Source of the DNA: Parcubacteria group bacterium
GTDB taxonomy: Bacteria; Patescibacteriota; Minisyncoccia; Phycocordibacterales; CSBR16-119
Direction of reading: 5' to 3'
Assembly (NCBI GenBank): GCA_943356745.1
Contig: CALRFT010000001.1
Location: forward strand, 75,946-139,945
DNA: 64,000 nt
Shown here: positions 4,136 through 54,623 of the stretch, piece after piece
Position numbering within the stretch: position 1 is the stretch's first letter
Layout: every line of letters begins with the position of its first letter
Program-made: the position numbers and the translations under genes
Notes under the pieces: generated by a model
What the model was told of the DNA's origin: nothing
The model's database searches: none
What the model saw: only the letters and a program-made list of their open reading frames with translations

Positions 4136-4145
4136 ATATTCAATA

Positions 4146-4661
4146 TTATTGAATCTTTGAAAGAAGATTTTCCAGACTACCTCCACCGCTCCATTTTGTA
4201 ATCATATTACCTTGCGCATCAACTTGAACCAAAGTATGCTGTGTTGTTACTCCATATTTTTTCTTGAGTTCAGTCTCAGCATCATAGTCAACTTGTAAAA
4301 TAGAAACATTTTCTGGTATTTCACTCATGTTCTTTTTAATATCTGCGTCAAGTCCACGACATGAAGGACACCAAGATGCGTGGAAAAATAGGACAACGTC
4401 TCCAGATTCTGCTCGTGCTAGTTTTTCTGGAGCATATGATTCATATGATCCCACCATCATATCTTTTGTCATAGAATCATCCATTTTATTTTCCATATCT
4501 TTATCGTCCATCATTGTATCCATGTCTTTCTCAGACATCATTGATTCTTCTGAAGACATATCTTTCATTGCTGTATCCATATTTTTTTCCCCACCAGCAA
4601 ATACAGCTATTGCAATAATCACCAAAATAATTACTACTCCAATCACAAGTTTTTTATTCAT
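4146..4661 (-). CDS. membrane-anchored extracytoplasmic thioredoxin (WCPSC) with Met-rich linker
   Basis: N-terminal TM helix; ~42-aa stretch with 13 Met; thioredoxin fold CxxC motif WCPSC. Confidence 0.8.
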   Translation of the reverse strand: MNKKLVIGVVIILVIIAIAVFAGGEKNMDTAMKDMSSEESMMSEKDMDTMMDDKDMENKMDDSMTKDMMVGSYESYAPEKLARAESGDVVLFFHASWCPSCRGLDADIKKNMSEIPENVSILQVDYDAETELKKKYGVTTQHTLVQVDAQGNMITKWSGGGSLENLLSKIQ

Positions 4662-4751
4662 ACTAATATTTATTTATATTTAATAATACATACCAAGTAT
4701 AAACAAAAGAAAAATAAATGTAAAGTAAACTTTACATTTATTTTGGGGAAA

Positions 4752-5114
4752 CTATAAATTTTTATCACTCCAAATTCTTGTTATAAACTTTGTCACCACC
4801 ATACCAATCAAAGTAAATACAAGCCAAGGATCAACAGTGTGTGTATAACCTTGAATAATAATACCAAGCACTAAAATTCCAGACCCAACAAGAAAAGCGT
4901 TTCTTCCCGCAAGAGATTTGTGTTGATACTCTCTTTCGTCTAATGATGTTTCTCTCATAACGAAAGTTGCCAAAAGACCAAACAAGGCAAGAGCTGTTGC
5001 AAGCATACAAATCACTACCATATCCGGCATCCAAAAACCAAAAGGATTCAAAAGAAGCACAGCTATGAGAATAAGCGCCAAAGTAACAATAGATTCTTTA
5101 ATATTATTTTTCAT
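4752..5114 (-). CDS. small membrane protein (DUF2178-like, co-operonic with XRE regulator); alt start 5138
   Basis: Three or four hydrophobic helices; immediately downstream of the HTH gene. Confidence 0.5.
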
Positions 5115-5316
5115 ATGATATGTTAAATATTTTTTCAACTGGAACTTTGAAAAAATGTGAGATTTTTAATGCGAGTAAAATTGAAGGTGTATAATTCCCT
5201 TTTTCTAAAGCAATAATTGTTTGCCTACTTACACCCACAAACAAAGCAAGCTCTTCTTGTGTTGAGCCTTTGGCAATTCTGTATGTACTTACTTCATTGT
5301 GAATTTTTTCTTTCAT
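5104..5316 (-). CDS. XRE-family helix-turn-helix transcriptional regulator; alt start 5355
   Basis: HTH_3-like segment [36 protein letters not shown]. Confidence 0.7.
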
Positions 5317-5379
5317 ATAAGTTTGTTTTTGATTATACATATTGAAGTTATACATGTAAATAAATGTCTTTAAAAAGAT

Positions 5380-5409
5380 AAAAATCCTCTTTAAATAAGA
5401 GGATTTTTA
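5380..5409 (-). terminator. intrinsic terminator after surface-protein gene
   Basis: ATCCTCT-TAAATAAG-AGAGGAT hairpin + T-run. Confidence 0.6.
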
Positions 5410-7143
5410 TTACCACCACAAACCTGGTGTTTGAAGTGATTTCATTACACTTCGAGTAATTGGACCAAAATATCCAACAGATGGATTAATATTGTGTTTC
5501 TTTTGATATTCACTAAGCGCACTTTCTGTTTGATTTAAAAACAATCCTGTAGATCCTGCTGGTATTGAATATCCTTGCTGTATCAGAAGATTCTGGAGTT
5601 GTTTTACATCATCTCCTTTCATTCCATATTTTAAATCCCGAATATTTACCACTGGAGTTTTAGAAACATTTTGAACAGACTCATATTCACACAAATCTTG
5701 TTTATGAGCTGAAAATCTTTCATAGTTAACAGCTTTTGGATCTTTACATCCACGATATGTCCCCGAAGAAGAATTATTTGTCTCTTCTGAAATAGTTGTA
5801 AAATTCCAAGTTGTTGTATCTGAAATTCCAGCGAAACTGTTCCCTGCCTCATCATCAAAAGCTGTTGCGTCTATTTGGACATAATATGCGGTTCCTTTTT
5901 CAAGATTTTCTGAAATAGAAACAGTGATTATATTTGTTCCATCACCAGAAATCTGCCCACTTGTTACGTCTATTGATTCTATCAACACATTTTCCTGGGA
6001 AGAATACAGCAGTATGTTTCCGCTTTGAATAACAACATTCTCGCTAAATTCAATAGTGAGATCAGTATTAACACCAACATTAGTCGCGTTATCAGATGGA
6101 GAAAATGTTTCAATAATTGGGTTTGTAAATTCACCAGTTGTAAAATTCCAAGTTGTTGTATCTGAAATTCCAGCAAAACTGTTCCCTGCCTCATCATCAA
6201 AAGCTGTTGCGTCTATCTGAATATAATATTCTGTATTTTCATTTAAATTTTGAGAGGGGTTGATTGTAATCATATCGGTTCCCGTACCTGTCACTTGCCC
6301 ACTTGTTATATCTATTGATTCCACAAGGGAATCATTCAAGGTTGTGTATATATTCACATAACCCGTCTGAACTTCCACAGACTCAGAAAAAGAAATACTT
6401 AAATTTGAAGTTGTGGAAACACCAGTTGCATTGTTAGATGGAGAAAAAGTATCAGCTAGCGGATTAACAACATCAGCATCAAGATTAGTTATAGTAATAT
6501 CATCAATGTAATCAACACCTACAGAAGCTCCGTAGCCGGCTGTGTATTGGACCTTTCCAGATGTGTAAGTTGAGTCAGAAACAGTTGCGAGTGTCGTATA
6601 ATTCGTACCATCATCTGAGTATTCAAAAGTTAAATCAGTTCCTACAGCAGAAGCACGAAACCATCGAGGCTCTGCTTTTGAAAGACTCCCACTCCACAAA
6701 GCTGTATAACTTGAAGGACCAACCTCCCAAATATAGACAGAACCTGAAGAATAGACATGGAACAAATATCCTTGTCTTGCTCCAACTGAATTAATAACCC
6801 CTGTGTCAGTATCCTGAGCACGAAGAGTAAATCCTGAACGTCCTAAATTACTTGAATAAGATTGTTTCCAAACAATCTGCTGATCAGATGAAGTTCCGAA
6901 ATTATCAAAAATAGCTCCAGCGATAACACCAACCTGTGTTACAGCTCTCATTGACTTACCAAGAATATCGTCATTTTGAACATCAAAGGTTCCAGCGGTG
7001 ACAGTAATCCCCGCTGGAGTTGTTCCTATTGTGTCACTTTCGAAATTATAACTAGCATCAGCAAAAACGAAACCCGGCAACAGCAAAGAAAAAACAACAA
7101 ATAACACAAGTGGTTTTAAAAATTTATTGGAAATTTTAATCAT
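5410..7143 (-). CDS. secreted surface protein: N-terminal ~200-aa lectin-like domain (paralogous to next gene), two tandem Ig-like repeats, C-terminal peptidoglycan-binding (PG_binding_1-like) domain
   Basis: Signal peptide; internal ~110-aa direct repeats; C-terminal LKYGMKGDDVKQLQNLL…GYFGPITRS. Confidence 0.8.
   Translation of the reverse strand: MIKISNKFLKPLVLFVVFSLLLPGFVFADASYNFESDTIGTTPAGITVTAGTFDVQNDDILGKSMRAVTQVGVIAGAIFDNFGTSSDQQIVWKQSYSSNLGRSGFTLRAQDTDTGVINSVGARQGYLFHVYSSGSVYIWEVGPSSYTALWSGSLSKAEPRWFRASAVGTDLTFEYSDDGTNYTTLATVSDSTYTSGKVQYTAGYGASVGVDYIDDITITNLDADVVNPLADTFSPSNNATGVSTTSNLSISFSESVEVQTGYVNIYTTLNDSLVESIDITSGQVTGTGTDMITINPSQNLNENTEYYIQIDATAFDDEAGNSFAGISDTTTWNFTTGEFTNPIIETFSPSDNATNVGVNTDLTIEFSENVVIQSGNILLYSSQENVLIESIDVTSGQISGDGTNIITVSISENLEKGTAYYVQIDATAFDDEAGNSFAGISDTTTWNFTTISEETNNSSSGTYRGCKDPKAVNYERFSAHKQDLCEYESVQNVSKTPVVNIRDLKYGMKGDDVKQLQNLLIQQGYSIPAGSTGLFLNQTESALSEYQKKHNINPSVGYFGPITRSVMKSLQTPGLWW
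5805..6474 (-). repeat. tandem direct repeat (2 × ~335 bp) encoding two Ig-like domains inside the 5410..7143 gene
   Basis: Near-identical nucleotide blocks (e.g. gttgtatctgaaattccagc[g/a]aaactgttccctgcctcatcatcaaaagctgttgcgtctat) at ~5810-5890 and ~6150-6230. Confidence 0.8.
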
Positions 7144-7194
7144 AAAATAATTATACTTGGTATTTCAAAAATATTTACATATTCTGTGGAGAAC

Positions 7195-7351
7195 AAAAAA
7201 CCACCCGAAGTTTTGGGTGGTTTTAAAATAGCTTGTATATTTTATTATAAATATTAATATTTAGAAATTTTAAATTAACTTATGATTAATAATCTAAATT
7301 CTGTAAAGTTATATAATTCCTAGTGACCGGACCAAAATACCCATTAGCCGG
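7195..7351. repeat. ~157-bp segment (gene 3′ end + terminator hairpin AAAACCACCCGAAGTTTTGGGTGGTTTT) duplicated at 10216..10372
   Basis: Near-identical in both copies, including the C-terminal …NGYFGPVTRNYITLQNLDY codons. Confidence 0.85.
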
Positions 7352-9985
7352 ATTAATATTATTCATACTTTGGTATTTAGCCAGTGAGGCTTTAGTGAGA
7401 GGACCAAAATAGTCTGTTTCTCTTCCAGGTGAACCAGTTCCAACTTCAGTAAGTAAAGAACCATTTGTATTAAGAAATATCTGTAATGCTTTTACATCTT
7501 CACCTTTACTACCCAATGTCAGATCACGGATAAAAATATTCAAAGGTAATCCCACCGCCGGAGAATCTTGCACAACACCAGCTTCTTTTTGTAATGCTTG
7601 GAGCTGTAATTTAAGTTGATGTAATTGTTTTATAAGGCTTTCATATGACGGCAGAGGTACTTCTTTTTGACTACGAGACCCAGAACTTACAATAGTTGTT
7701 GGATAAATAACTTCTGAAGGTATTTCTTCAGCGACAGAAAATGAAATTATATAGTCTTCAGTATTTGGATTACCTACACTATCAGTACATTTAACATAAT
7801 ACGTATAACTATTACCATTTTCTAAGCTATTTACAACAACACTATGTGAAGTCCCTCCTGTTGTACTGAAAGTAACATCCATTGATGCATATGCCACAGC
7901 TGAAGTCGTATCATATTTACAAGTTGCTGTTTCGTTTGTAGTAAGAGATAGGGTTGTTGAAGTAGTATCAACTGAAAGTTCTGCTGAAGGAGCACCGGAA
8001 GAAAGAATTGGAGGGACGGCAGAAGAAACTATCTCATTAATAAATATTTCTGCCGGTAAATTATAGACACTACTGTCTGTTGGTACAACTAAACCGTTCG
8101 CAGTATCTCCATACCCTAACGAAACAGTAGCATCGCCACTCAGTGGTGAATTAAGTGTAATAGTAATTATATTATCAGATGTTCTCGCAACACTAGATAT
8201 TGCCACAGACACACCATTATCTTCCACCCTAAAACCTTGAATACCACTTGTTGGCAAAAGAGGTAGTGTGTTATCAGAAAACATAATAGCTATCTTATTT
8301 CTGGTGATATTTTCTTCTGAAATTAAATATTGAGGACCTCTTCCATCATCCCCGTTATAGAAATGATATTCTATCGCTGCCCACCAACGATTTGCTGCAA
8401 TTTCTATTTCTTCATTTGTTCTAAAATGAAGACCATCATTAGAGAGATTTACATCATATAAAGATGGACCAGCTAACACATTACTATTATCTTCCCAAGC
8501 ATCAAGTTGGGCTAGACGAATATTATTTAAATCCACAGCTGGTTCACCAGAAAATTCACCTATCTGTGCAACTACTGTTTTTAAACCAAAGTCATTATAT
8601 ATATTATTAACCATTGTATCTAAACTACTATTATAAGTAGTTCTTGAGGTTGCATTAGCAACATCAGTTTCGCCTTGCCAAAAAAGAACAGCTTTCATTT
8701 CCCCTATAGCATTTATACGACTTGCTAATGTTGTGTATAAACTTTGTCCTTTTTGCCACTGCGCAATACTTGTACCTCCCTGCGGTGGATCAGTAATGAA
8801 TGCAACAGGAACATCCTGACTTTCCATCAATCGAGTTGCGACAATTGGCCACACAGTTCCACCCACACCATCAGCTGGATCTGTAAGTTCAGCCCATGAA
8901 CCTGTAAACTTAGAGGCTTTCAGTGTAGGGTGAGAATAAACTTGATTACTAAGTCCTCTACCACTTGCATTACTTTGCCCAGCAATGGCATATATATCTC
9001 CCACACCGACATAAGCAGCAGAATCATTAACATCAGAATTATTACTAAACCTGACTTCTATACTTCCTTGACCAATATCTTGATTTTCTAAAACACCAGA
9101 GAATGTACCTCCACTTAAAGAAGCATCGATTGTGGTCCATGTACCGCCATTAAACCTAGCCTCTATTGCAACTGGTGAGCCAGTATATGTTCCACTTATA
9201 GAGATATCTGATTGATTATTATTATCTCTTTGAAAAACTTGATAATCAGAAGGACTTGTTATTGCTATAGCATCTGGTACAAAAGCCTGTGTTTCATAAA
9301 CAATATCATCTACATACATATCTCCCACACCTGAGCCATACCCAGCACTATATTGAACAAGACCTGAAGTGTAAGTACTATCAGTAACAGTGGTACCTAA
9401 TTGAGTATAATTAGTTCCATTATCAGAATAATAAAAACTAAGCTGGTTACCAGACACAGTTGCCTTAAACCACCGTGGGCTTTGAGCTGTTAGTGAAACT
9501 TCAGCAAGAATATCAAATGTGGTAGAGGTAACTTTATATACTCTTACCTTATTAGCACTCGCACTCGCGTCAGTATGATTAACCTGAAAAAGATAACCTT
9601 GTTTAAGTCCAGCGATTGCAGAATTACCCGATTGGGCACGCAAGGTAAAACCATGTCTACCACCCCCACTTTGATAAGCTTCTTTCCATGTCACCGTCTG
9701 ATCTGTATCCGAGGTAAAATTATTAAAAGTAATAGCAGCTGTATTTGCAGGTCCTGTGAGTCCAGTCGCTGTTAGTGAGTTACCTAACACAGCCTGATTG
9801 GCAACCTGAAATGTTCCAGTATTAGCTGTTGTATTAGCGGGAGTTTGACCAACAGTATCACTATTAAAGTTATAAGTTACTGTTGCGGCATATAAATTAA
9901 TAGTATTAAGTAAAAAAGTTATCAAAAAAAATACTAAACAAAGTAATATTTTTTTAGTTATTTTCAAAAATAAGTTATTGTACAT
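7286..9985 (-). CDS. surface-anchored carbohydrate esterase: lectin-like N-domain + SGNH/sialate-O-acetylesterase (DUF303/SASA)-family domain + Ig-like region + C-terminal peptidoglycan-binding domain
   Basis: Signal peptide; motifs AGQSNASGRG, FWQGETD, DGLHF typical of SASA/SGNH esterases; C-terminal PG_binding_1-like domain. Confidence 0.8.
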   Translation of the reverse strand: MYNNLFLKITKKILLCLVFFLITFLLNTINLYAATVTYNFNSDTVGQTPANTTANTGTFQVANQAVLGNSLTATGLTGPANTAAITFNNFTSDTDQTVTWKEAYQSGGGRHGFTLRAQSGNSAIAGLKQGYLFQVNHTDASASANKVRVYKVTSTTFDILAEVSLTAQSPRWFKATVSGNQLSFYYSDNGTNYTQLGTTVTDSTYTSGLVQYSAGYGSGVGDMYVDDIVYETQAFVPDAIAITSPSDYQVFQRDNNNQSDISISGTYTGSPVAIEARFNGGTWTTIDASLSGGTFSGVLENQDIGQGSIEVRFSNNSDVNDSAAYVGVGDIYAIAGQSNASGRGLSNQVYSHPTLKASKFTGSWAELTDPADGVGGTVWPIVATRLMESQDVPVAFITDPPQGGTSIAQWQKGQSLYTTLASRINAIGEMKAVLFWQGETDVANATSRTTYNSSLDTMVNNIYNDFGLKTVVAQIGEFSGEPAVDLNNIRLAQLDAWEDNSNVLAGPSLYDVNLSNDGLHFRTNEEIEIAANRWWAAIEYHFYNGDDGRGPQYLISEENITRNKIAIMFSDNTLPLLPTSGIQGFRVEDNGVSVAISSVARTSDNIITITLNSPLSGDATVSLGYGDTANGLVVPTDSSVYNLPAEIFINEIVSSAVPPILSSGAPSAELSVDTTSTTLSLTTNETATCKYDTTSAVAYASMDVTFSTTGGTSHSVVVNSLENGNSYTYYVKCTDSVGNPNTEDYIISFSVAEEIPSEVIYPTTIVSSGSRSQKEVPLPSYESLIKQLHQLKLQLQALQKEAGVVQDSPAVGLPLNIFIRDLTLGSKGEDVKALQIFLNTNGSLLTEVGTGSPGRETDYFGPLTKASLAKYQSMNNINPANGYFGPVTRNYITLQNLDY

Positions 9986-10215
9986 GTTTTATATTTTAAC
10001 TTAGATTTATAAATTTAAATAGTTAATTTAAATTAATATAAAAATATTACTTCTTGTCAACACAAACTCCGACCTATCATATTTTGCTTTGAGAAAGAAA
10101 TAAATAAAAAATGCAACAGACTCAACCAAAGTTTTAATTTTGTTTTATTGAAATAAATCCCACTACCGAACTACCTTTTTACAAAAGCTCTTTAATTTTT
10201 GACTTAGGAAGTATT

Positions 10216-10372
10216 AAAAACCACCCGAAGTTTTGGATGGTTTTTAAATAGCTTGTATATTTTATTATAAATATTAATATTTTAGAAATTTTAAATTAAC
10301 TTATGGTTAATAATCTAAATTCTGTAAAGTTATATAATTCCTAGTAACTAAACCAAAATATCCATTAGCCGG
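10216..10372. repeat. second copy of the ~157-bp 3′-end/terminator repeat (see 7195..7351)
   Basis: Sequence identity; differs by a few substitutions and one T indel. Confidence 0.85.
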
Positions 10373-13300
10373 AACTATACTGTTCGCTTTTTGATATGAA
10401 CTGAGTGCGTTTTTTGTTTGTTGTCCGAAGAATCCTGTTGCCCCTGCCGGGATTGAGTACCCTGCCTTAATCAGAAGTTCTTGAAGTTTCATAACATCAG
10501 CTCCACTCATTCCCAACTCTAGATCTCGTGAGTTTTGAGATGTTGCTGGTGAATTTGTATTTACGGCTGCTGAATTTTTGTTAATAAACGCTTTTGTGAT
10601 TGGTCCGAATACCCCAAGCGCTGGTGATATACCATTTGCTTTCTGGAATCGTGCAAGAGCTTGTCTTGTGAGTTCACCAAATGTATCTGTCTCATTATCA
10701 AGTGAGCCGGGACCGCTTAGCGCTACAGGGAAACCGTTTGTATTTAGGAAACGTTGCAGTTCGCGAGTAGTTGATACGTTCGGGCCAGCAGTGTTTGTAT
10801 TCGAGTTTGAAGTTTCTTGGTTCTCATCTTCATTTCCTCTTCTATCATCGTCATCATCTGAAACATCTTGTTTTTCTATTTTTCGAATTTGCTTCCTAGA
10901 CCCGCTTGAACTAATTCTATTTCTATTCACACTTGATATAGTTGCAGGATACGCATCTTCTCCTTCACCACTCCAATAATAAGTCCCAAGTGTGGTTTGA
11001 CTAAATGGACGATCCTCACCACTTTCAGCATATCCATTACCATTTGTGTCGATAATATTAAACACTGTCCAAGCACCTTCTCCATTCAATAGTCGATATG
11101 TGTTTCCTGAATCAGAATCATTAAAAACAACATTCTCAATATCTTCTGTATGGATCCATTGCTCTGCGTGAATATTATTTCCGATGAAACTACTGTCAGA
11201 AACAAAATATAAATCAATACCTTTTATAGAATCATAAACTTCTACTAATTCATATTCAGTACCTCCTGAAAAGTCAGCTCGGTATGAAGACGGTTCGTCA
11301 ATTTTAATACCTGCTCTGTATAAATCTCCAGCTTCAACATCATATGCACCAGTAAACATATCGTAGTAGTACCCTTGGAAATTCATTTCTATAAAGTTCC
11401 ATTGCACTTCTCCATCTGGATAGAGTACTACTTGAAAATGTATCGGGTACGTAGCTGAGTTATAATCAGATAAAGTTGACCCAAACCATTCGACTACCAC
11501 ATACTCATCATCTGGACTAAACACAGCAACATAATCCCCTTCAACAGATTCAGTTGTAAGTCCATCAAAACTTGCGAATAGCACATCTGCACTTAGGAAG
11601 TTTTTGTGATCACCATAGTCCGTGCAAATTGAACAAGATTCTGCTTCTTCAAGTAATTCAATAGATCCATTCACGTTGACTTCTATTGCGACAATATCGC
11701 GTCCTTGGAAATTGAAAGTGAATGGCAATGTGTGTGTAAATGAAGCATACGAAACACTATAGCTTTCATCAGCATCAAGAATATCAAGTGCTATAGATTC
11801 TGTATCAACTGATGGAATCTCAAGAAACTCACTTATCGTTGGCGTAATTGTGTTTTCACTAAATGTCACCTCTGAAGAGTCTCCAACATCAATACCGCTA
11901 CCGGAAACGTTTAACGTATTCCCTGTAATAATCGCACCGTCTGTATCAACTATTTCAATACCATTGTCGTTAATATTAGTTAGTACATTATCAGTAACTG
12001 TAATATCACTGTTTCGCCCTTCATCAGAATCAAAATCAATACCATCACCGTTTTCTACTCCATCAATTGTATTTTCAGAAATCAAAACATTCACACTATC
12101 TTCAAAATATATTCCATCACTATAAATATTAGTGAATGAGTTATTAGTTATCTCAGCATTCTCAACAACGTACATTGAAATACCGTCGTCATCTGTGTCT
12201 GATATCTCATTTTCTGTTACAACAAGATCGGTAATATAATCAAGATTCATACCGTGCCCTCCAGTACCTGACACAACAACATTTTGAATGACAATATCAC
12301 TGTTATAAATTTCTCCATCAAAACTATCATTGTAGGTTCTAAAAGTAAGACCGAAATCATAAGTATCAGCGATTGTACTATCTGAAATAGTCATTCCAGA
12401 TACGCCGCGTAACTCAATTCCGTCATCAGCCATATCACTAATGGTGACGTCTGTAATTATTGATGTACCTTGAGAATTATATAACTTAATTCCGTCATCA
12501 AATGCATCTAGAGTGATGTTTGAAATACTAATGCTATCATAACCAATACCAAAAATTGCATTCTCCCCATCTCCTATATTGCTACTTATCGTATGACCAG
12601 CACCATCAATAAATACATTGTCTGCTTCAATTGTAATACAATCTCCAAACACACCACTGATATCGTTTTGTAATTCATAATATCCAGATGCATCAACATC
12701 AAAACATTGCGTAACTTGGTATGGGTCTTCTGATGTTCCAGTTCCAAGCAATGGATCAAATGATTCCCATAAGAAACTTGGGTAGCCGTCATTTTCTGCA
12801 CTCATTTCCCAAATACTTGAAAAATTCCAAGAAACATCTGTATACGTACTTTGCGTTTTAGCTTGAACAGTAGTTACTTCATTCAATCCTAGACATGCGC
12901 CAGTCTGACACGCAACCTCTTGGGCAATTGATTCACTATCCCAGAATGAATTAGAAATTATCGTGTCTGTGGCATCTTTTGCAAAACCTCCAAAAAATGT
13001 TCCTCCATTATTTATGGTTAGCGCACCTCTTGAATACACGTTAGTAATGTTTGAGCTTGTAACATCAGATGCAAAGGACCCAGCCTGATCATTAGCTGTT
13101 ACTGAGCCGTCTGAGTAAGCATTCACAAACGTTGATACATTTCCATATCCCAAAAATCCTCCAACAACGTTGTTTCCCACAACATTTCCATGTGCAGCAA
13201 CTTGCGTAAATGTAGAACCAGGACCTTCGCATGCATCGTACCCAGTAAATCCTCCGACATAACTATTACCTGATTCCACATTTCCAGATGCAGACACTCT

Positions 13301-14506
13301 TAAAAACGAACTCTCACAAAATGAAGCTCCGACAAATCCCCCAGCATAACTTCCTATGGAAGTTACTTCTCCTGTAGCAATGGAATCTATAATTGTCGAA
13401 GTATAAATATTTCCAGCAAAACCTCCGACATACTCATTTCCAGAAACAATTCCACTTGCAGAACTGTCTGAAATTTGAGAGCTGCCTTGAACCTCTCCCG
13501 CAAATCCACCGGCATAATTTCCCTCAGCCGTTACTGATCCACTGGCTGTTGAGTCTTCGATTGTTGAACCATAAATTCTTCCAGCAAATCCTCCAGTATA
13601 AAAGCCATTCTTAGAGAAGAACTCAAGATATAAATCATCACCATCATTTGAAACGACATCTCCCGTGGCGTCAACATTATCAATACTAGAAGCTTCAACC
13701 TCCCCAAACGCACCTCCTACGTATTCACCTCCGTCAATATCTGCACTTGTACTACTGTTTGTGACAGTACTGTTATTTACTTCACCCACCAGTCCTCCAA
13801 TAACATTTCCAGATCCATGTACTGTACCACCAGTTACTGTGAGCTGTGTTGCTGTACTTCCATTAGCAATTTCTCCAGCAATACCTCCTCCATCGTAGGC
13901 CAAGTATGCTCGAACCATTCCTGTGTTATTTGTAAGGTTTTGTAGACCAACCCCTGAACCGTATCCCAGAAATCCCCCAGTACTTGATTGCCCAACAATT
14001 TGTGCATTGTCTAATATTACATTTTTAATTATTGCATTTGTCGCATAACCAATCAGACCTGCATAATCTTGATTTTTTCTAAATATCCACAAATTAGAGA
14101 TTGTGTGATTTTGACCATCAAGTGTTCCTGTAAAACCGTTTCCACTACCATTTAATGCATCATCTCGCCCAATCGGCTCAAATCCAAAGTATCCATTATT
14201 AACAACACCAACATATTCATCATCAATCAATGTTCCGCCCACCACACCGTCCACCCACTCATCAACATTTTCATTCCATGTCGCAGTTGCTGCACAGTCA
14301 ATGTCATTTCCAAGTTTATAGTACGCATCAAACTCCCCATTCATTTCCTGAAGTTGTGTACAGTTTGTGATAATAAATGCAGTTTCAATAGACAAACCAT
14401 CACCCGCACCTGAGAAAGCAAATATCTGATTTGCCGAAAATAATAATACTAATAAAAATAACCCTCTAAAAATTACTTGGTAAGATTTTTTGATTAAATG
14501 CACCAT
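10307..14506 (-). CDS. giant surface adhesin (1399 aa): signal peptide, GLUG-motif repeats, right-handed beta-helix (PbH1) repeats, acidic linker, two C-terminal peptidoglycan-binding domains
   Basis: Repeated (Y/V)xGGF(A/V/L)G motifs; NxxGxxxxxN beta-helix repeats; DDDDD linker; two PG_binding_1-like domains. Confidence 0.8.
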   Translation of the reverse strand: MVHLIKKSYQVIFRGLFLLVLLFSANQIFAFSGAGDGLSIETAFIITNCTQLQEMNGEFDAYYKLGNDIDCAATATWNENVDEWVDGVVGGTLIDDEYVGVVNNGYFGFEPIGRDDALNGSGNGFTGTLDGQNHTISNLWIFRKNQDYAGLIGYATNAIIKNVILDNAQIVGQSSTGGFLGYGSGVGLQNLTNNTGMVRAYLAYDGGGIAGEIANGSTATQLTVTGGTVHGSGNVIGGLVGEVNNSTVTNSSTSADIDGGEYVGGAFGEVEASSIDNVDATGDVVSNDGDDLYLEFFSKNGFYTGGFAGRIYGSTIEDSTASGSVTAEGNYAGGFAGEVQGSSQISDSSASGIVSGNEYVGGFAGNIYTSTIIDSIATGEVTSIGSYAGGFVGASFCESSFLRVSASGNVESGNSYVGGFTGYDACEGPGSTFTQVAAHGNVVGNNVVGGFLGYGNVSTFVNAYSDGSVTANDQAGSFASDVTSSNITNVYSRGALTINNGGTFFGGFAKDATDTIISNSFWDSESIAQEVACQTGACLGLNEVTTVQAKTQSTYTDVSWNFSSIWEMSAENDGYPSFLWESFDPLLGTGTSEDPYQVTQCFDVDASGYYELQNDISGVFGDCITIEADNVFIDGAGHTISSNIGDGENAIFGIGYDSISISNITLDAFDDGIKLYNSQGTSIITDVTISDMADDGIELRGVSGMTISDSTIADTYDFGLTFRTYNDSFDGEIYNSDIVIQNVVVSGTGGHGMNLDYITDLVVTENEISDTDDDGISMYVVENAEITNNSFTNIYSDGIYFEDSVNVLISENTIDGVENGDGIDFDSDEGRNSDITVTDNVLTNINDNGIEIVDTDGAIITGNTLNVSGSGIDVGDSSEVTFSENTITPTISEFLEIPSVDTESIALDILDADESYSVSYASFTHTLPFTFNFQGRDIVAIEVNVNGSIELLEEAESCSICTDYGDHKNFLSADVLFASFDGLTTESVEGDYVAVFSPDDEYVVVEWFGSTLSDYNSATYPIHFQVVLYPDGEVQWNFIEMNFQGYYYDMFTGAYDVEAGDLYRAGIKIDEPSSYRADFSGGTEYELVEVYDSIKGIDLYFVSDSSFIGNNIHAEQWIHTEDIENVVFNDSDSGNTYRLLNGEGAWTVFNIIDTNGNGYAESGEDRPFSQTTLGTYYWSGEGEDAYPATISSVNRNRISSSGSRKQIRKIEKQDVSDDDDDRRGNEDENQETSNSNTNTAGPNVSTTRELQRFLNTNGFPVALSGPGSLDNETDTFGELTRQALARFQKANGISPALGVFGPITKAFINKNSAAVNTNSPATSQNSRDLELGMSGADVMKLQELLIKAGYSIPAGATGFFGQQTKNALSSYQKANSIVPANGYFGLVTRNYITLQNLDY

Positions 14507-14742: not shown

Positions 14743-16500
14743 TTAAAAATAAGAAACTTGCCCTGTCTTAGAAATAGCTCCTCCAGAAATTGGAGAAAAT
14801 GTTTTTGGATTATCACTCTTATAAGCAGATCGGTCGATTGAAAGTATAGGTAATTCTGAACTGCCTCGAGCTATCCCGTCTTCATCACTGTGTCCATGAA
14901 TAACAAGATTTACTCCGAAAGATTTAAGTTTTGTCTCCAACTCCTTTTTTTGTTCCGCTGTAAGATTGGAATCTTCAGAGAAATTTATTCTTGATTTTGA
15001 ACTAGTCGAGATAAAGGTATCTCGCAATATATTAAAATTTGTAACCTGTGATGAACTTAAGGATTCTTGATTATCATCAAGATATGCTTCTAAGCAGTTT
15101 TGATAGAAAGTATTTATTTTAGTAATTGCATCTGAAATACTTTGACCTTCACTTATATTTTTCTCAATAATTCCCACCATTTCTTTTGTAAGATTTGTAT
15201 GAACATACAATGTGTCATCATACATTTGTATCAATTGTTGATTTTTGAGTGATTCTATTATTTCAGGCTGGGTTGTTCTTATATTTTCTTTAATTGAAGA
15301 TCTATTTTCTAAAATAGATGCACCTATTAGATTTTGAATACTACTTGGCATATGTTCAGACATCAACAGAATTTGCCTGATGCTAATTGGTGCAGAATCT
15401 ATATTTTCTATTAAGTTTTTATTAGTATTCAAGTCAGCTAACAAATTTTCTCGCGTTGAAATTTCTTTCGGGTCAAAATTATTTGTTTTCATGTGACGCA
15501 AGGTTCGCTCTTTTACTTGTATAACATTTTCCAACTCCTTAAGAATAATATCTTTTTTATTCACGACTTCAGAAATAATACTATCTCGTATTTGTTGTGG
15601 TAAAAATTCAGCAAGTTCAAGATTACCTGAATATTGAGTCAATCTGTCTTTCATATCTTTCTCAACAGGAGTTCCAAATTCAGTTGAAAAACCGCCAAGT
15701 ACAGCATTAAACATATTTTCATGATTACCAGAAAGCCAAACAACATCTCCTCCAGACTGCTCTGCAAGTTTTTTGAGCTTCAACAAATCAGAGTACACAC
15801 GCAAACCATCTGGAGTTCTGTCTCCGAGTATGTCTCCAACAAAAACAACTTTCTTATCTTGACCCGTCCAAGACATTTCACCATTTTCAAAAGTTGCCAA
15901 ATTTCTGTTTACTAAATGAGCAACAAAACTTTCATATGAACCATTCAGATCTCCTATTGGTTCTTGTTCGTGCTCACGGTATCTTTCTGGTAATTGAATA
16001 TTTTTTTCAAAACTAACTTTTTCTTCTAATTCCAAATTACTTTCCTGTACTGTTTCTACTGGTTCCGCCGTTGAAGTTTCTATTCCAATTTGTTTTTTAA
16101 GTTCTTGAATTTTTACTTCTTCCTCAACCTGAGCTGACATTTTTTGTTCTTTTTTATTCCAATCCAATTCACTAAAATGTAGTATCGCTTTTCTTATTCT
16201 TGCATTTTTAGCATTTTCTTCTTCACTTGTAGAAAGCGTTTGTTGAGCTAAAAAATCTTCCAATACGGGAAAATCAAAAGGATTATTTGTATTGTCCCGA
16301 CAGTTGTATGGAACAAGTCTGTATGCCTCTTGTTTCAAAGCATTAAAAACAGCCCCGTCTTCTCGTACTCCTTCAAGAATGTCTTCTATTGTTTGTTGTC
16401 CATTCTCAATTCTTTCAAAATATTCTTGTACTTTTAAAGAAAAAGGGTTTACCTGCTCTTTTTCATTTGTAGTTTCTGGTGTTTTTTTAGGATTTTCCAT
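14743..16500 (-). CDS. calcineurin-like metallophosphoesterase with ~230-aa insertion between metal-binding motifs
   Basis: GDILGDR (GDxxDR), LSGNHE (GNHE), VIHGHS (GH) motifs. Confidence 0.7.
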   Translation of the reverse strand: MENPKKTPETTNEKEQVNPFSLKVQEYFERIENGQQTIEDILEGVREDGAVFNALKQEAYRLVPYNCRDNTNNPFDFPVLEDFLAQQTLSTSEEENAKNARIRKAILHFSELDWNKKEQKMSAQVEEEVKIQELKKQIGIETSTAEPVETVQESNLELEEKVSFEKNIQLPERYREHEQEPIGDLNGSYESFVAHLVNRNLATFENGEMSWTGQDKKVVFVGDILGDRTPDGLRVYSDLLKLKKLAEQSGGDVVWLSGNHENMFNAVLGGFSTEFGTPVEKDMKDRLTQYSGNLELAEFLPQQIRDSIISEVVNKKDIILKELENVIQVKERTLRHMKTNNFDPKEISTRENLLADLNTNKNLIENIDSAPISIRQILLMSEHMPSSIQNLIGASILENRSSIKENIRTTQPEIIESLKNQQLIQMYDDTLYVHTNLTKEMVGIIEKNISEGQSISDAITKINTFYQNCLEAYLDDNQESLSSSQVTNFNILRDTFISTSSKSRINFSEDSNLTAEQKKELETKLKSFGVNLVIHGHSDEDGIARGSSELPILSIDRSAYKSDNPKTFSPISGGAISKTGQVSYF

Positions 16501-17667: not shown

Positions 17668-17710
17668 TTGTATTTTGTATTTTGTATTTTGTATTTTGTA
17701 TTTTGTATTT
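17667..17710. repeat. heptanucleotide SSR (TTTGTAT)6 = (ATACAAA)6 on the gene strand, abutting the start codon of 16570..17667
   Basis: Six perfect 7-nt units read directly; followed by T5. Confidence 0.9.
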
Positions 17711-17755
17711 TTTCGCAATTTATCATTATATCCTTATTATGTCAATTTATTATAT

Positions 17756-20362: not shown

Positions 20363-20444
20363 GTCTCCATTATACCAAAAAATCCTTATGTTATATCTCT
20401 GAGTATTTTAATACTCGTCGGAGTCCGAACTCCGCTCGTGTTTG

Positions 20445-35398: not shown

Positions 35399-37687
35399 TT
35401 AGAAATTTTCTTGAATAAATTGACGTGTAAAGTAATCAAGATACCCTGAAGCTTTTTGGAAGCTTGTAGGTGCCACAATCGAGTCTTGATAGAACGTCTG
35501 GAAATTTTTCAAAGCGCTAAAAGTCCTATCTCCAAAATAAGCAGTTTCCCTACCTGGTGAACCAGGCCCTGACTCAGCAAGAATAAATCCTTCTTCATTA
35601 AGAAACTTTTGTAAGCTAATTACATCAAAATGAGCTGTTCCATACCATAGGTCTTGATTAAATTCTCTGATTGTTATTTTTTCTTCTGAAGAATCATCTT
35701 TATTTTTATCGTTTTCTATTTCTGTTTTTAATTCGTCAGACAATATTACCAATGATTCTTTTGTTGTATTTGATATAGACTTACCATTACTTGAGCTACT
35801 TGAAACCGAATTATCTGAGTTAGATACCTGTAAATTTGTTTGATCAACATAGACTCCCGTACTAATTGTTACACTATTTCCACTAGCATTTTCTCCGAAC
35901 AATCCGAATATTGAGAAACTATTTGTATTACATGAAATTTCTCCAAGTCCTGTTTTAGGATTATAACTATTTACACACTGATTAAGTTTTCTCCATCCAA
36001 TCTCTTCTTCGTAGTGATGAATAACCAAAGTATTTAAATCAATATCTTTAATGTCTTCTCGTGTATATTCAATAGTAACAGTAATTGGTTGATCGAAGTT
36101 ATTTACCTCTTGTTCAGATGTTGCACTATAAGCAGCAAGATTATATACGTGTTCTCCTACCCATACAACTTTTTGTTCCGGTAGTCCAATCTCTTCTTTT
36201 GTTGTGAGTTTTTCTAGAAGTTTTACCTGAAATACCACTTCAGATTCTCCAGCTTTTAAATTTTGAGGAATTTCAAGCTTTGTTTTTACATCTGCGTCAG
36301 CAAAATCAATAATTCCTCCAACTGTTGTATCAATAACCCCTTCTTTAACTTTTTGAATTTCAGCTGTTGTAACACAACCTGTTGTTGTAAACTTCTGTTC
36401 TCCCCCAATTGCAACCTGAGAGAGGGAATCGTATGACTTCACAGTAAATGAGTAAGTTGTACATGGCAACAAATCAACAATAGTAACACTGTGCTCCATC
36501 ACTCTCGTATTTTTATTATATTCAGGTGTTGAAGTTTTTGTACTAAGAAGACCAAAATCAACACGCGTTGAAGTATTTTTATTTGTTGACCAACTAATAA
36601 CCGCGGAAGTATCACTTACAACTACGGTCGCAAGTCCAACAATTGATGGTGCAATATTTTTATCTGGTGAACCTTTCACCTCAACAGAATACTCTCCAGA
36701 CCCTACAGCATTGACAGCTCGCACTGCTACAGTGTAAGACATTCCATTTATAAGACCTGTAAGAATATGGCTCGTTTTTGATTGATTAACAGAAACCACA
36801 GAATTCACACCTTTAGCATCTGTATAAGAAATATTATATTCTGTAAGCGAAGACCCTCCGTTACTTGGAGCTGTCCAAGAAACAGAAAGTGTTGAATCAC
36901 CAGGTGTAAGAGTAATTCCGGAAGGAGTTTCAGGAACTGTTGCTACTATCTTCGCACTTGGAGTTGCCTCAATAGGATCAGAATATGTCCCAATGCCGAC
37001 AGAGTTTTCTGCAGCAACCTTAATAACATACTTAGTATTATTTGTTAGTTTATCTAAAAGATACCCTGTGTTTGTTGACTTAAGATCAATAATAGTCTCT
37101 CTACCATTAACTGTTACCGAGAGAATATAGTTTAGAATCATATCTCCCCCATCCTCTACAGGTTCCAGCCATGAGAGTTCAATTGACCCATCTCCAGGAG
37201 TTCCCTCGAGATTCAAAACTTCACTTGGTTCCACAGACTGCTTAGCAATAGCTGGTGTTGCAGAAACCAAAGATGATTGTTCACTAGTTCCGACAGCGTT
37301 AGAAGCAGCGATAATAAAACCATATTCCGTATCATTTTTTAAACCAGTTACAGTATAATTAGTATCTCCACTTTTTGTAGATATTGTATTTGATAATTTA
37401 CCCGCTGAATAAACTCCGATACGGTGGTCTGTTAAAGGCGATCCTCCATCTGATTCAACTTCCCAAGAAAGTTCAACTTGTGCATCGCCTGGAGTGGCAA
37501 CCACAGAGATAGGAGATGAAGGTGCTGTCGCTCCACCCTTTCCGACTTGCGCTCCAAGAAAAACATTTTGTGTTGGTTGATTGAATCCAACTAATACAAA
37601 CGCAGCAAGTCCAATTATTGCTAGCAAACTAAATGCTATATTTCCTTTCATGAAGGAAATTTTATTTTGTAAGTTTATTATAGACAT
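35399..37687 (-). CDS. surface protein with multiple fibronectin type III-like repeats and C-terminal peptidoglycan-binding domain
   Basis: N-terminal TM/signal; several FN3-like modules (…VELSWEV…YTVTGLKNDTEYGF…); C-terminal PG_binding_1-like domain (SLQKFLNEEGF…GYFG). Confidence 0.75.
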   Translation of the reverse strand: MSIINLQNKISFMKGNIAFSLLAIIGLAAFVLVGFNQPTQNVFLGAQVGKGGATAPSSPISVVATPGDAQVELSWEVESDGGSPLTDHRIGVYSAGKLSNTISTKSGDTNYTVTGLKNDTEYGFIIAASNAVGTSEQSSLVSATPAIAKQSVEPSEVLNLEGTPGDGSIELSWLEPVEDGGDMILNYILSVTVNGRETIIDLKSTNTGYLLDKLTNNTKYVIKVAAENSVGIGTYSDPIEATPSAKIVATVPETPSGITLTPGDSTLSVSWTAPSNGGSSLTEYNISYTDAKGVNSVVSVNQSKTSHILTGLINGMSYTVAVRAVNAVGSGEYSVEVKGSPDKNIAPSIVGLATVVVSDTSAVISWSTNKNTSTRVDFGLLSTKTSTPEYNKNTRVMEHSVTIVDLLPCTTYSFTVKSYDSLSQVAIGGEQKFTTTGCVTTAEIQKVKEGVIDTTVGGIIDFADADVKTKLEIPQNLKAGESEVVFQVKLLEKLTTKEEIGLPEQKVVWVGEHVYNLAAYSATSEQEVNNFDQPITVTIEYTREDIKDIDLNTLVIHHYEEEIGWRKLNQCVNSYNPKTGLGEISCNTNSFSIFGLFGENASGNSVTISTGVYVDQTNLQVSNSDNSVSSSSSNGKSISNTTKESLVILSDELKTEIENDKNKDDSSEEKITIREFNQDLWYGTAHFDVISLQKFLNEEGFILAESGPGSPGRETAYFGDRTFSALKNFQTFYQDSIVAPTSFQKASGYLDYFTRQFIQENF

Positions 37688-53822: not shown

Positions 53823-53824
53823 GA

Positions 53825-54613: not shown

Positions 54614-54623
54614 TTTATTATGT

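What the first reader, a model, noticed from the sequence alone, without database searches (positions are those of the whole stretch)
5410..14506. Tandem array of three paralogous giant surface proteins, all anchored by C-terminal peptidoglycan-binding domains, including a surface SGNH/sialate-O-acetylesterase-family enzyme
Three consecutive minus-strand genes (577, 899, 1399 aa) each have a signal peptide and end in PG_binding_1-like domains. The 1399-aa protein has two such domains. Genes 1 and 2 share a ~200-aa lectin-like N-domain. Gene 2 carries a DUF303/SASA esterase core (GQSNASGRG, FWQGETD, DGLHF). Gene 3 combines GLUG repeats with pectate-lyase-like beta-helix repeats. In an episymbiotic/CPR-like cell this looks like a host- or glycan-attachment toolkit: lectin-like binding, O-acetyl-sugar esterase, beta-helix adhesin. 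A wall-anchored O-acetylesterase could remodel host peptidoglycan or capsule acetylation.
Basis: partly seen in the sequence, partly recalled or inferred. Interest (0 to 1): 0.6.

Follow-up and report, generated by a model that had tools for sequence, protein, structure and literature searches.

The report
Wall-tethered secreted glycan-binding proteins, strain-variable esterase
Three neighbouring genes of an ultrasmall (CPR/Paceibacteria) bacterium encode secreted sugar-binding or sugar-modifying proteins with peptidoglycan-binding tails. This is an ordinary kind of surface protein for this group, but the esterase gene is a strain-specific cassette bounded by 130-bp repeats.

Summary
ORFs 5410-7143, 7286-9985 and 10307-14506 (minus strand; 577, 899 and 1399 aa) are real genes. 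Each has a signal-peptide-like N-terminus and a C-terminal PG_binding_1 domain, two in the largest. The SASA, GLUG, Beta_helix and Big_5 calls all pass Pfam cut-offs. The esterase keeps Ser338, His520 and Asp517, and its AlphaFold model is confident (pLDDT 95.6).

"Paralogous" is true only for two modules: the lectin-like N-domain (genes 1 and 2, 45% identity) and the tail (all three). The genes are large but not giant.

New findings:
- The window is Paceibacteria-like (Patescibacteria).
- The N-domain has a CBM66/legume-lectin fold.
- The esterase core is a beta-sandwich-flanked SGNH domain related to CE6 and CE20. It occurs in many phyla. It carries the peptidoglycan-binding tail only in Patescibacteria and a T9SS tail in Flavobacteriia.
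- Gene 3 is a double beta-helix conserved across the clade.
- The esterase gene is absent from four contigs of a sister strain (DNA 96-98% identical in the flanking blocks) and is bracketed by 130-bp direct repeats.

Substrate, host role and what the tail binds are untested. Peptidoglycan-binding extracellular proteins of Paceibacteria are already published. Verdict: new member of a known kind, modest interest.

The parts
5410..7143 (-). G1, 577 aa. Signal peptide aa 1-28 (7060-7143). ConA/CBM66-like N-domain aa 29-222 (6478-7059). Two Big_5 Ig-like domains (6136-6465 and 5794-6123; a 342-nt tandem repeat). Cys-bracketed linker. PG_binding_1 tail aa 506-572 (5428-5628).
7286..9985 (-). G2, 899 aa. 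Signal peptide (9887-9985). ConA/CBM66-like N-domain aa 34-235 (9281-9886). Ig-like beta-sandwich aa 236-325 (9011-9280). SASA-type SGNH esterase aa 326-545 (8351-9010) with Ser338, Gln437 and Asp517-x-x-His520. Second beta-sandwich (SWM_repeat-like) aa 546-650 (8036-8350). FN3-like domain aa 651-760 (7706-8035). Helical/low-complexity linker. PG_binding_1 aa 818-899 (7289-7534).
10307..14506 (-). G3, 1399 aa. Signal peptide. N-terminal cap. GLUG-repeat beta-helix about aa 126-530 (12917-14131). Second, PbH1/NosD-type right-handed beta-helix about aa 601-890 (11837-12706). Two Pfam-unassigned beta-rich modules about aa 915-1195. Acidic linker. Two PG_binding_1 domains, aa 1240-1312 (10571-10789) and aa 1326-1399 (10310-10531).
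10216..10345 (-). Upstream copy of the 130-bp direct repeat. It covers the last 13 codons of G3 (TRNYITLQNLDY, stop), the 3' UTR and a terminator-like hairpin.
7196..7324 (-). Downstream copy of the direct repeat, 96.9% identical to the upstream copy. It covers the last 13 codons of G2, the 3' UTR and the terminator hairpin AAAACCACCCAAAACTTCGGGTGGTTTT (7224-7197). Together the two copies bracket the 3,021-bp G2 cassette, which is missing from the sister strain.
5378..5410 (-). Terminator-like hairpin immediately after G1.
35399..37687 (-). A fourth secreted protein elsewhere in the window with the same kind of C-terminal tail: fn3 x3 plus a PG_binding_1-like domain at aa 687-762. It shows that the tail is a general module in this genome and not specific to the array.

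Best explanation
The locus is a small, variable island of separately transcribed genes in a Paceibacteria-like (Patescibacteria/CPR) genome. The genes encode Sec-exported, multi-domain, glycan-directed proteins. Each most likely stays on the cell's own wall through non-covalent C-terminal PG_binding_1 domains.

- G1 is a lectin/CBM-like head on a stalk of two Ig-like domains.
- G2 carries the same kind of head in front of an SGNH carbohydrate O-acetylesterase of the SASA type (CE6/CE20-related). The catalytic domain is flanked by beta-sandwiches and keeps an intact Ser-His-Asp triad. It should remove O-acetyl groups from a polysaccharide or glycoconjugate that the head binds.
- G3 is a double right-handed beta-helix, the fold of polysaccharide lyases, epimerases, tailspikes and many adhesins. 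It has two wall-binding domains. It binds and possibly cleaves or modifies a polysaccharide.

G3 is a conserved core surface protein of the clade. G1 is shared by the two strains compared and is not found next to G3 in four more distant relatives. G2 is a strain-specific accessory cassette, gained or lost by homologous recombination between 130-bp direct repeats made of the anchor's last codons plus the terminator.

Shown here: genes, domains, folds, catalytic residues, taxonomic distribution, and the indel with its repeats.
Inferred: export, wall retention, acetylesterase activity, and a glycan target.
For: Genes and domains.

Modular relatedness.

Catalytic residues. In 56 aligned homologues, GQSN (Ser338) and His520 are invariant. 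Gln437-Gly-Glu-x-Asp441 and Asp517 are conserved in at least 90%. The alignment to the esterase 2apj covers the DxxH block.

G2 model and fold matches. The model has pLDDT 95.6. Foldseek finds:
- XAC1771 (CE20), 4e-23.
- Mammalian SIAE, 2e-19.
- 2apj and 1zmb, about 1e-10 to 1e-9.
- For the N-domain, CBM66 and the legume-lectin/ERGIC-53 folds.
A profile search against PDB sequences ranks 2apj first, at 5.7e-24.

Tandem heads. Flavobacterial homologues carry 1-4 copies of the N-domain ahead of the esterase core, as carbohydrate-binding modules often do.

Anchor swapping. The esterase core carries a PG_binding_1 tail only in Patescibacteria-labelled loci (10 loci). It carries a Por_Secre_tail in Flavobacteriia, including the cultured Winogradskyella rapida and Lutibacter citreus.

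Own peptidoglycan. Loci of clade relatives encode PBP transpeptidases, a Mur ligase, Ddl, FemAB and sortase, so the clade makes its own peptidoglycan.

G3. The model has pLDDT 84.6 and shows two beta-helices. The fold matches PL6 lyases, AlgG/AlgE6 epimerases, RbmB and phage tailspikes. Full-length orthologues at 49-72% identity keep the same architecture.

G2 indel.
- Four sister-strain contigs have G3 followed directly by G1.
- Flanking DNA is 96.4% and 98.6% identical, and the two blocks overlap by 158 bp in the sister strain.
- The 130-bp repeats are 96.9% identical, against about 50-57% in the adjacent domain-coding DNA.
- The crossover maps inside the terminator.
- G2 has no relative above 63% identity in 5.8 billion clusters.

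Prior art: Paceibacteria that parasitise methanogens highly express extracellular proteins with peptidoglycan-binding domains (PMC10936435).
Against: - No experiment of any kind supports export, wall binding, esterase activity or a substrate.
- The signal peptides were judged heuristically only.
- PG_binding_1 is a 'putative' binding domain and could bind something other than the cell's own wall.
- Gene context of flavobacterial homologues gave no substrate clue.
- The beta-helix fold matches for G3 are generic, with E-values of 1e-7 to 1e-4 and low TM scores over the whole chain.
- The direction of the G2 indel is unresolved. Outgroups have no conserved synteny downstream of G3. The compositional signal in G2 is weak (lowest GC3, 0.181, and a high RSCU distance).
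Confidence: 0.7

Rival explanations
1. The PG_binding_1 tails do not retain the proteins on the producer. Instead they target the peptidoglycan of a bacterial host, so the array is an attachment or attack toolkit in which the tail is the host-binding end.
For: The authors of PMC10936435 propose host attachment for peptidoglycan-binding extracellular proteins of Paceibacteria. From general knowledge, PG_binding_1 occurs in lytic enzymes and endolysins that bind foreign walls. NCBIfam gives weak SleB-like matches to the tails.
Against: - In Flavobacteriia the same esterase core ends in a T9SS sorting domain. That is a producer-side secretion and attachment signal, which suggests the C-terminal position holds the producer's retention module.
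- The tail is found on at least four unrelated secreted proteins in 64 kb, as expected of a generic anchor.
- The hosts in PMC10936435 are archaea without murein.
- The clade has its own peptidoglycan synthesis genes.
Confidence: 0.2
2. G2 is specifically a sialate 9-O-acetylesterase or a peptidoglycan (MurNAc 6-O) acetylesterase that remodels a host surface.
For: - The Pfam family name is SASA.
- There is a fold match to mammalian SIAE at 2e-19.
- Depositors named several bacterial relatives 'sialate O-acetylesterase'.
Against: - The family also contains xylan and xyloglucan acetylesterases of CE6 and CE20 (PMC12313940).
- The best sequence relative, 2apj, is a plant esterase of unknown substrate.
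- Identity to SIAE is only about 15%.
- No peptidoglycan O-acetylesterase appears in the sequence hits at E<=0.001 or in the 50 best fold matches listed.
- No sialic acid or peptidoglycan-remodelling genes lie nearby.
Confidence: 0.12
3. The proteins form a nutrient-scavenging kit for free environmental polysaccharides and have no role in cell-cell attachment. G2 deacetylates, G3 depolymerises, and G1/G2 provide CBM-like binding.
For: - The esterase core is widespread in free-living polysaccharide degraders and soil phyla: Flavobacteriia, Thermoleophilia, Abditibacteria and Acidobacteriota.
- G3's fold neighbours are polysaccharide lyases and depolymerases.
- A sugar-type solute-binding protein is encoded in the window.
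Against: - No glycoside hydrolases or obvious uptake genes lie next to the array.
- From general knowledge, CPR genomes have very limited carbohydrate catabolism.
- The esterase is dispensable in sister strains.
Confidence: 0.3
4. The absence of G2 from the sister contigs is an assembly artefact: a collapse across the 130-bp repeat, not a real strain difference.
For: The junction lies exactly in a repeat longer than the k-mer implied by the contig names (k141), which is the situation in which assemblers can skip a segment.
Against: - Four contigs from different samples, three in ENA and one in JGI, show the same G3-G1 junction.
- No G2-like protein above 63% identity exists anywhere else in the protein collection, so there is no orphan G2 contig from those samples.
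- The two repeat copies differ at four positions. The sister copy is a clean chimera of them.
Confidence: 0.05

Closest known systems
SASA-type SGNH carbohydrate O-acetylesterases (Pfam PF03629). This includes 2apj (Arabidopsis At4g34215) and 1zmb (C. acetobutylicum), which I recall as CE6 members, and CAZy CE20 members (XacXaeA 7kmm, Fl8CE20_II 9h4u, PpCE20_II 9ega, mammalian SIAE 8f9o-r).
   Same: - GQSN block I with the nucleophile Ser.
- Gln in place of the SGNH Asn (QGExD), as reported for CE6 and CE20 (PMC12313940).
- His in block V.
- An SGNH alpha/beta/alpha fold.
[quoted passage not shown]
   Different: [quoted passage not shown]
- Block V is the classical DxxH, not the DxH with a water-mediated triad of CE20.
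- G2 has added modules: a CBM66-like head, an FN3-like domain and a PG_binding_1 tail.
- Identity to any solved structure is at most 24%.
- The substrate is unknown.
Extracellular peptidoglycan-binding-domain proteins that are highly expressed by archaea-parasitising Paceibacteria (Kuroda et al., mBio 2024, PMC10936435).
   Same: Same bacterial class. They are secreted multi-domain proteins with Ig-like or sugar-binding modules and a peptidoglycan-binding domain. T4SS-pilin genes occur in the same genomes.
   Different: That paper does not describe an esterase, a GLUG/beta-helix protein or strain-level cassette variation.
CBM66 (Bacillus subtilis levanase SacC module, 4azz/4b1m) and legume-lectin/ERGIC-53-type ConA-like domains.
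   Same: The N-domain shares the beta-sandwich jelly-roll fold (TM 0.76-0.81 normalised to CBM66). It sits N-terminal to a carbohydrate-active catalytic domain and occurs in tandem copies in homologues.
   Different: Only 17-18% identity. No Pfam family reaches its cut-off; DUF1349 and GH43_C2 score 13-17 bits. The ligand is unknown.
Right-handed parallel beta-helix polysaccharide-active proteins (PL6 alginate lyases, AlgG/AlgE epimerases, RbmB, phage tailspike depolymerases) and GLUG-repeat proteins (3n6z, 'IgA1 protease-like').
   Same: G3 contains two consecutive beta-helices. One is built of GLUG repeats and one of PbH1/NosD repeats.
   Different: No catalytic residues could be assigned. 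The fold matches are generic. The two C-terminal modules and the double PG_binding_1 tail are not features of those enzymes.
Non-covalent wall-anchoring modules of monoderm bacteria (LysM, SH3b, SLH, choline-binding repeats) and T9SS C-terminal sorting domains of Bacteroidota.
   Same: A C-terminal module is appended to many unrelated secreted proteins. It is exchanged between lineages while the functional core is kept.
   Different: The module here is PG_binding_1. Its binding target in Patescibacteria has not been tested.

Membership tests
Pfam SASA (PF03629) / SGNH hydrolase superfamily | Profile match above the curated cut-off | tested here: met
   78 bits against a cut-off of 24.8, aa 329-530.
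Pfam SASA (PF03629) / SGNH hydrolase superfamily | Block I GQSN with the nucleophile Ser, block III Gln/Gly (QGExD), and block V Asp/His | tested here: met
   G336, Q337, S338, N339 and H520 are invariant. Q437, E439, D441 and D517 are conserved in at least 90% of 56 homologues. Motif positions are given.
Pfam SASA (PF03629) / SGNH hydrolase superfamily | SGNH alpha/beta/alpha fold | tested here: met
   AF2 model with pLDDT 95.6. Foldseek probability 1.00 to 7kmm, 8f9q, 2apj and 1zmb.
Pfam SASA (PF03629) / SGNH hydrolase superfamily | O-acetylesterase activity | not testable with these tools
   Needs an enzyme assay.
CAZy CE20 | [quoted passage not shown] | tested here: met
   In the model, beta-sandwiches at aa 236-325 and 546-650 flank the SGNH domain.
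CAZy CE20 | Bacterial clusters only: an ancillary beta-sandwich inserted into the SGNH domain, and a DxH block V with a water-mediated triad | tested here: not met
   The SGNH domain is contiguous. Block V is D517-G-L-H520, that is DxxH.
CAZy CE20 | Closest sequence relatives are CE20 members | tested here: not met
   The profile search ranks 2apj first at 5.7e-24. CE20 members score 8e-12 to 3e-4, and only partially.
CAZy CE6 | Sequence relatedness to CE6 structures (2apj and 1zmb, whose CE6 membership I recall from memory) | tested here: inconclusive
   They are the best PDB sequence hits, at 19-24% identity. No CAZy/dbCAN model was available to assign the family.
Sialate O-acetylesterase (NanS/SIAE function) | Activity on 9-O-acetyl sialic acid | not testable with these tools
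   Only a fold resemblance to SIAE at about 15% identity.
Peptidoglycan O-acetylesterase (Ape-type) | Sequence or fold relatedness to Ape enzymes | tested here: not met
   No such protein appears among the PDB sequence hits at E<=0.001 or the 50 best fold matches listed. That Ape1 structures exist in the PDB is from memory.
Pfam PG_binding_1 (PF01471) | Profile match above the cut-off at the C-terminus | tested here: met
   G1 39.9 bits, G2 35.6 bits, G3 66.9 bits (two copies), against a cut-off of 23.
Pfam PG_binding_1 (PF01471) | Binding to peptidoglycan | not testable with these tools
   Needs a sacculus pull-down.
Pfam Glug (PF07581) and Beta_helix (PF13229)/NosD | Profile matches above the cut-offs, and a right-handed beta-helix fold | tested here: met
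   Glug 39 bits against 20.5. Beta_helix 76.6 bits against 25.9. The model shows two beta-helices.
CBM66 / ConA-like lectin domain | Jelly-roll beta-sandwich fold | tested here: met
   TM 0.76-0.81 to 4azz/4b1m. There are also ERGIC-53 and peanut lectin matches.
CBM66 / ConA-like lectin domain | Sequence-family membership and sugar binding | tested here: not met
   No Pfam ConA-like family reaches its cut-off. Sugar binding is not testable here.
Sortase-anchored (LPXTG) surface proteins | C-terminal LPXTG followed by a hydrophobic segment and a charged tail | tested here: not met
   There is no C-terminal LPXTG and no C-terminal hydrophobic segment.

The most novel reading that the evidence does not exclude
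The conserved beta-helix protein and the interchangeable lectin and esterase genes next to it might form a wall-tethered apparatus. An ultrasmall Paceibacteria cell would use it to recognise and strip acetyl groups from a partner's surface polysaccharide. Gain or loss of cassettes by recombination at the shared 'anchor tail plus terminator' repeat would then switch host or substrate range between strains.
Probability: 0.1. Interest if true: 0.6.

Novelty: new member of a known kind. Interest (0 to 1): 0.3.

Why it matters
Little is known about how cells of the candidate phyla radiation hold on to partners or feed on them. Secreted proteins with peptidoglycan-binding domains are among the few candidates, and one transcriptome study supports them.

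This locus gives three concrete test objects:
- A confidently modelled, apparently active acetylesterase.
- A lectin-like module that recurs on several such proteins.
- A clade-conserved double beta-helix protein.

It also shows that the repertoire differs between strains whose flanking DNA is 96-98% identical, through a clean repeat-mediated indel.

The contrast between anchors is a useful annotation rule for envelope-specific surface display. The same esterase core carries a peptidoglycan-binding tail in Patescibacteria and a T9SS tail in Flavobacteriia.

None of this changes current understanding, and the components are all known kinds.

Tried and rejected
1. General 'recombination handle'. 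I tested whether adjacent tail-bearing genes in other loci (L019, L085/86 and the sister strain) also share near-identical 3' ends running past the stop codon. They do not. Identity is only about 70-72% inside the domain-coding DNA. The 130-bp repeat is therefore a single recent event, and the general hypothesis is rejected for lack of support.

2. Polarity of the G2 indel by outgroup. Four G3 orthologue loci at 58-72% identity have unrelated downstream genes, so they do not resolve it. The C-terminal motif NYITLQNLDY is unique to G3 and G2 of this species. It is absent from G3 orthologues and from G2 homologues. So the repeat arose by copying within this lineage, but insertion and deletion remain equally compatible. 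Codon usage gives only a weak hint of foreign origin.

3. Substrate from gene context. In cultured Flavobacteriia the neighbours are housekeeping genes, with no polysaccharide utilisation locus.

4. Sequence searches of G1 and G3 against PDB sequences found nothing.

6. Literature searches returned nothing for Patescibacteria with 'peptidoglycan-binding' and 'surface proteins', for Patescibacteria with PG_binding_1, and for GLUG with beta-helix and adhesin.

7. A sortase-anchoring reading was rejected because there is no C-terminal LPXTG.

8. A single-operon reading was rejected as unlikely. Terminator-like hairpins follow G2 and G1, and a near-identical copy follows G3.

Full report
**1. Observation**

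The window holds three consecutive minus-strand ORFs at 5410-7143 (G1, 577 aa), 7286-9985 (G2, 899 aa) and 10307-14506 (G3, 1399 aa).

- G1: two Big_5 Ig-like domains and a C-terminal PG_binding_1.
- G2: SASA (78 bits against a cut-off of 24.8) and a C-terminal PG_binding_1.
- G3: three Glug stretches, Beta_helix/NosD, and two PG_binding_1 copies.

The quoted G2 motifs sit at aa 336-344 (GQSNASGRG), 435-441 (FWQGETD) and 517-521 (DGLHF).

All three proteins start with a K/R-rich segment, a strongly hydrophobic stretch and a small-residue site. None has a further membrane segment or a C-terminal LPXTG. This check is heuristic, because no signal-peptide predictor was available.

Relatedness between the three is modular:
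- The G1 and G2 N-domains are 45% identical over 226 aa (E=3e-51).
- All three tails are 45-59% identical.
- The central parts are unrelated.

Terminator-like hairpins follow G2 and G1, and a near-identical copy of the G2 hairpin follows G3. The three genes are therefore probably not one operon.

**2. Organism**

The window matches an ENA metagenome contig of 518,649 bp. GC is about 35%.

Topoisomerase I from the window has its best named relatives in Candidatus Parcubacteria, Pacebacteria, Paceibacteria and 'Patescibacteria group', at 62-67% identity. The CPR assignment is supported. An episymbiotic lifestyle is not shown by anything here.

Loci of clade relatives encode PBP transpeptidases, a Mur ligase, D-Ala-D-Ala ligase, FemAB and sortase. 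The clade therefore builds its own peptidoglycan.

**3. The esterase (G2)**

Catalytic residues. I aligned G2 aa 34-650 with 55 homologues.
- GQSN (Ser338) and His520 are invariant.
- Gln437, Glu439, Asp441 and Asp517 are conserved in at least 90%.
- Block V is therefore the classical DxxH.
- The SGNH Asn is replaced by Gln, as reported for CE6 and CE20 enzymes (PMC12313940).

Model. The AlphaFold model is very confident, with mean pLDDT 95.6. It shows an N-terminal jelly-roll, a beta-sandwich, the SGNH domain and a second beta-sandwich.

Fold matches from Foldseek against the PDB:
- Xanthomonas XAC1771, the founding CE20 acetylesterase: 4e-23.
- Mammalian sialic acid esterases: about 2e-19.
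- Two bacterial CE20 enzymes.
- 2apj and 1zmb.
- For the N-domain alone: CBM66 (TM 0.76-0.81), ERGIC-53 and legume lectins.

Sequence matches. By profile the order differs. 2apj comes first at 5.7e-24 across the whole SGNH domain. CE20 members are weaker and partial.

Comparison with CE20. The CE20 paper describes the family as an SGNH domain flanked by beta-sandwiches. [quoted passage not shown] G2 has the flanking sandwiches. It lacks the insertion and has DxxH.

Conclusion. I file G2 under the SASA-type SGNH acetylesterases, related to CE6 and CE20, without assigning a CAZy family. The substrate cannot be read from sequence. The nearest relatives include xylan, xyloglucan and sialic-acid esterases. 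No peptidoglycan O-acetylesterase appears among the hits.

**4. Distribution of the G2 family and the meaning of the tail**

The module 'beta-sandwich + SASA + beta-sandwich' is present in 115 of the 120 best database hits. The N-domain is present in 39 of them, including several non-esterase proteins that also end in PG_binding_1.

A scan of one genome per species returned the 80 best of 326 matching loci. They come from Patescibacteria, Flavobacteriia (including the cultured Winogradskyella rapida and Lutibacter citreus), Thermoleophilia, Abditibacteria, Acidobacteriota and other phyla.

Using module HMMs on those loci:
- The PG_binding_1 tail accompanies the esterase core only in Patescibacteria-labelled loci (10 loci).
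- Flavobacterial versions carry 1-4 tandem N-domains and end in a T9SS Por_Secre_tail.

A fourth secreted protein in the window (35399-37687, fn3 x3) carries the same kind of tail.

My inference is that the C-terminal position holds the lineage's own surface-retention or secretion module. In this wall-bearing Patescibacterium that module is PG_binding_1. This favours self-anchoring over host-wall targeting but does not prove it.

Peptidoglycan-binding extracellular proteins have already been reported as highly expressed in Paceibacteria that parasitise methanogens. The authors suggested host attachment (PMC10936435).

**5. G3 and G1**

G3 has full-length orthologues at 49-72% identity on long contigs, up to about 800 kb. 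All share the same architecture: GLUG helix, PbH1 helix, two unassigned modules and two tails.

The AlphaFold model (pLDDT 84.6) shows two consecutive right-handed beta-helices followed by less confident beta-rich modules. The fold neighbours are PL6 alginate lyases, AlgG/AlgE6 epimerases, RbmB, inulin lyases and phage tailspikes. E-values are modest, from 1e-7 to 1e-4. 'Adhesin' and 'polysaccharide-processing enzyme' both remain open.

The region aa 895-1200 has no Pfam family. It consists of two modules that occur separately, sometimes many times, in only 227 of 1.84 billion representative clusters.

G1 is a lectin-like head on two Ig-like domains with a tail. It has no catalytic domain.

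**6. Strain variation (new)**

The indel.
- Four contigs of a sister strain, from three ENA samples and one JGI sample, carry G3 (96.6% protein identity to the window's G3) followed directly by G1 (98.4%). They have no G2.
- DNA upstream of the gap is 96.4% identical between the strains, and DNA downstream is 98.6% identical.
- The two alignment blocks overlap by 158 bp in the sister strain.

The repeats.
- In the window, the 3,021-bp G2 cassette is bracketed by direct repeats at 10216-10345 and 7196-7324.
- The repeats are 96.9% identical. The adjacent domain-coding DNA is only about 50-57% identical.
- Each repeat covers the last 13 codons (TRNYITLQNLDY), the stop codon, the 3' UTR and the terminator hairpin.
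- The single sister copy is a clean chimera. It follows the G3 copy up to the terminator and the G2 copy from there on.

Origin and direction.
- The NYITLQNLDY ending is unique to G3 and G2 of this species. It is absent from G3 orthologues and from G2 homologues. The repeat therefore arose by copying within this lineage.
- Two routes fit equally: deletion in the sister by recombination between the repeats, or insertion here with duplication of the G3 3' end.
- Outgroups are uninformative, because the genes downstream of G3 differ in every lineage. In one lineage they include other tail-bearing proteins.
- G2 has no relative above 63% identity in the protein collection. It also has the lowest GC3 of 26 window genes. 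These are weak hints of acquisition.

Generality. Other adjacent tail-bearing genes do not share such extended 3' identity. There is therefore no evidence for a general cassette-exchange mechanism.

**7. Verdict**

The functional story (host attachment, remodelling of host peptidoglycan or capsule) is plausible but untested, and its peptidoglycan and sialic-acid specifics are unsupported.

All components belong to known kinds, and the class of protein has been noted in Paceibacteria before. What this analysis adds:
- A confident structural description.
- The lineage-specific anchor swap.
- The conservation ranking: G3 is shared across the clade, G1 by the two strains compared, and G2 by the window's strain only.
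- A clean repeat-bounded indel of the esterase gene.

Interest is modest, at 0.3. Novelty: new member of a known kind.

Noticed in passing
window 35399-37687 (-): A fourth secreted protein (762 aa, three fn3 domains) ends in a PG_binding_1-like domain. My HMM built from the array's tails detects it at 2.4e-16. Pfam at E<=1e-5 did not list it.
   Followed up: partly
window 52827-53897 and 53825-54661 (-): Two adjacent ORFs have C-terminal T4SS_pilin domains. The same kind of gene is reported as highly expressed in parasitic Paceibacteria (PMC10936435).
   Followed up: no
window 2360-5355 (-): Directly downstream of the array lie an HTH_3 regulator with a DUF2178 membrane protein, a thioredoxin with an N-terminal hydrophobic segment, and a DsbD_TM-MsrA-MsrB fusion. 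Together they look like an extracytoplasmic methionine-sulfoxide repair set.
   Followed up: no
window ~1918-2373, and 20444-20515 (tRNA-Gln): There are two further differences from the sister strain. A Cupin_2 gene present here is absent there. Synteny also breaks exactly at tRNA-Gln: the sister has about 4 kb with a ParB_N/N6_N4 methyltransferase gene and a haem-oxygenase-like gene that has no match in the window. That could be an integrated element.
   Followed up: partly
window 14140-14345 (G3 aa 55-60 and 113-123): Amino-acid differences between the two strains' G3 proteins cluster in two short patches of the N-terminal cap and are scattered elsewhere. This could be a small recombination tract or local diversification.
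   Followed up: no
G2 aa ~767-773 (window ~7667-7687) and G3 aa ~1197-1204 (window ~10895-10918): A shared 'SSGSR.Q' motif sits just before the linker that leads to the tail in both G2 and G3. Its meaning is unknown.
   Followed up: no
G1 aa 465-485 (window ~5689-5751); C-termini of G1, P0253 and P0254: The G1 linker has a Cys-bracketed 'GCKDPKAVNYE...C' motif. G1 and two distant G3 orthologues end in 'GLWW', a recurrent C-terminal ending of tail-bearing proteins in this clade.
   Followed up: no
window 10907-11824 (G3 aa 895-1200): There are two Pfam-unassigned beta-rich modules (A about aa 920-1085, B about aa 1095-1195). They occur separately or repeated, up to 11 matched stretches in a 7434-aa protein. 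They are found in only 227 of 1.84 billion representative clusters.
   Followed up: partly
window 16570-17718 (-) and 14743-16500 (-): The two ORFs upstream of G3 have no family match or only a weak Metallophos match. They are the most diverged between the strains, at 91.5% and 95.4% protein identity against 98-100% for the other neighbouring genes.
   Followed up: no
L085 5600-16659: In a relative whose G3 is 72% identical, the G3 orthologue sits in a different cluster of tail-bearing genes. A Laminin_G_3 protein lies upstream, separated from it by a DUF1761 gene. A Peptidase_M26_N/GLUG protein follows directly downstream.
   Followed up: partly
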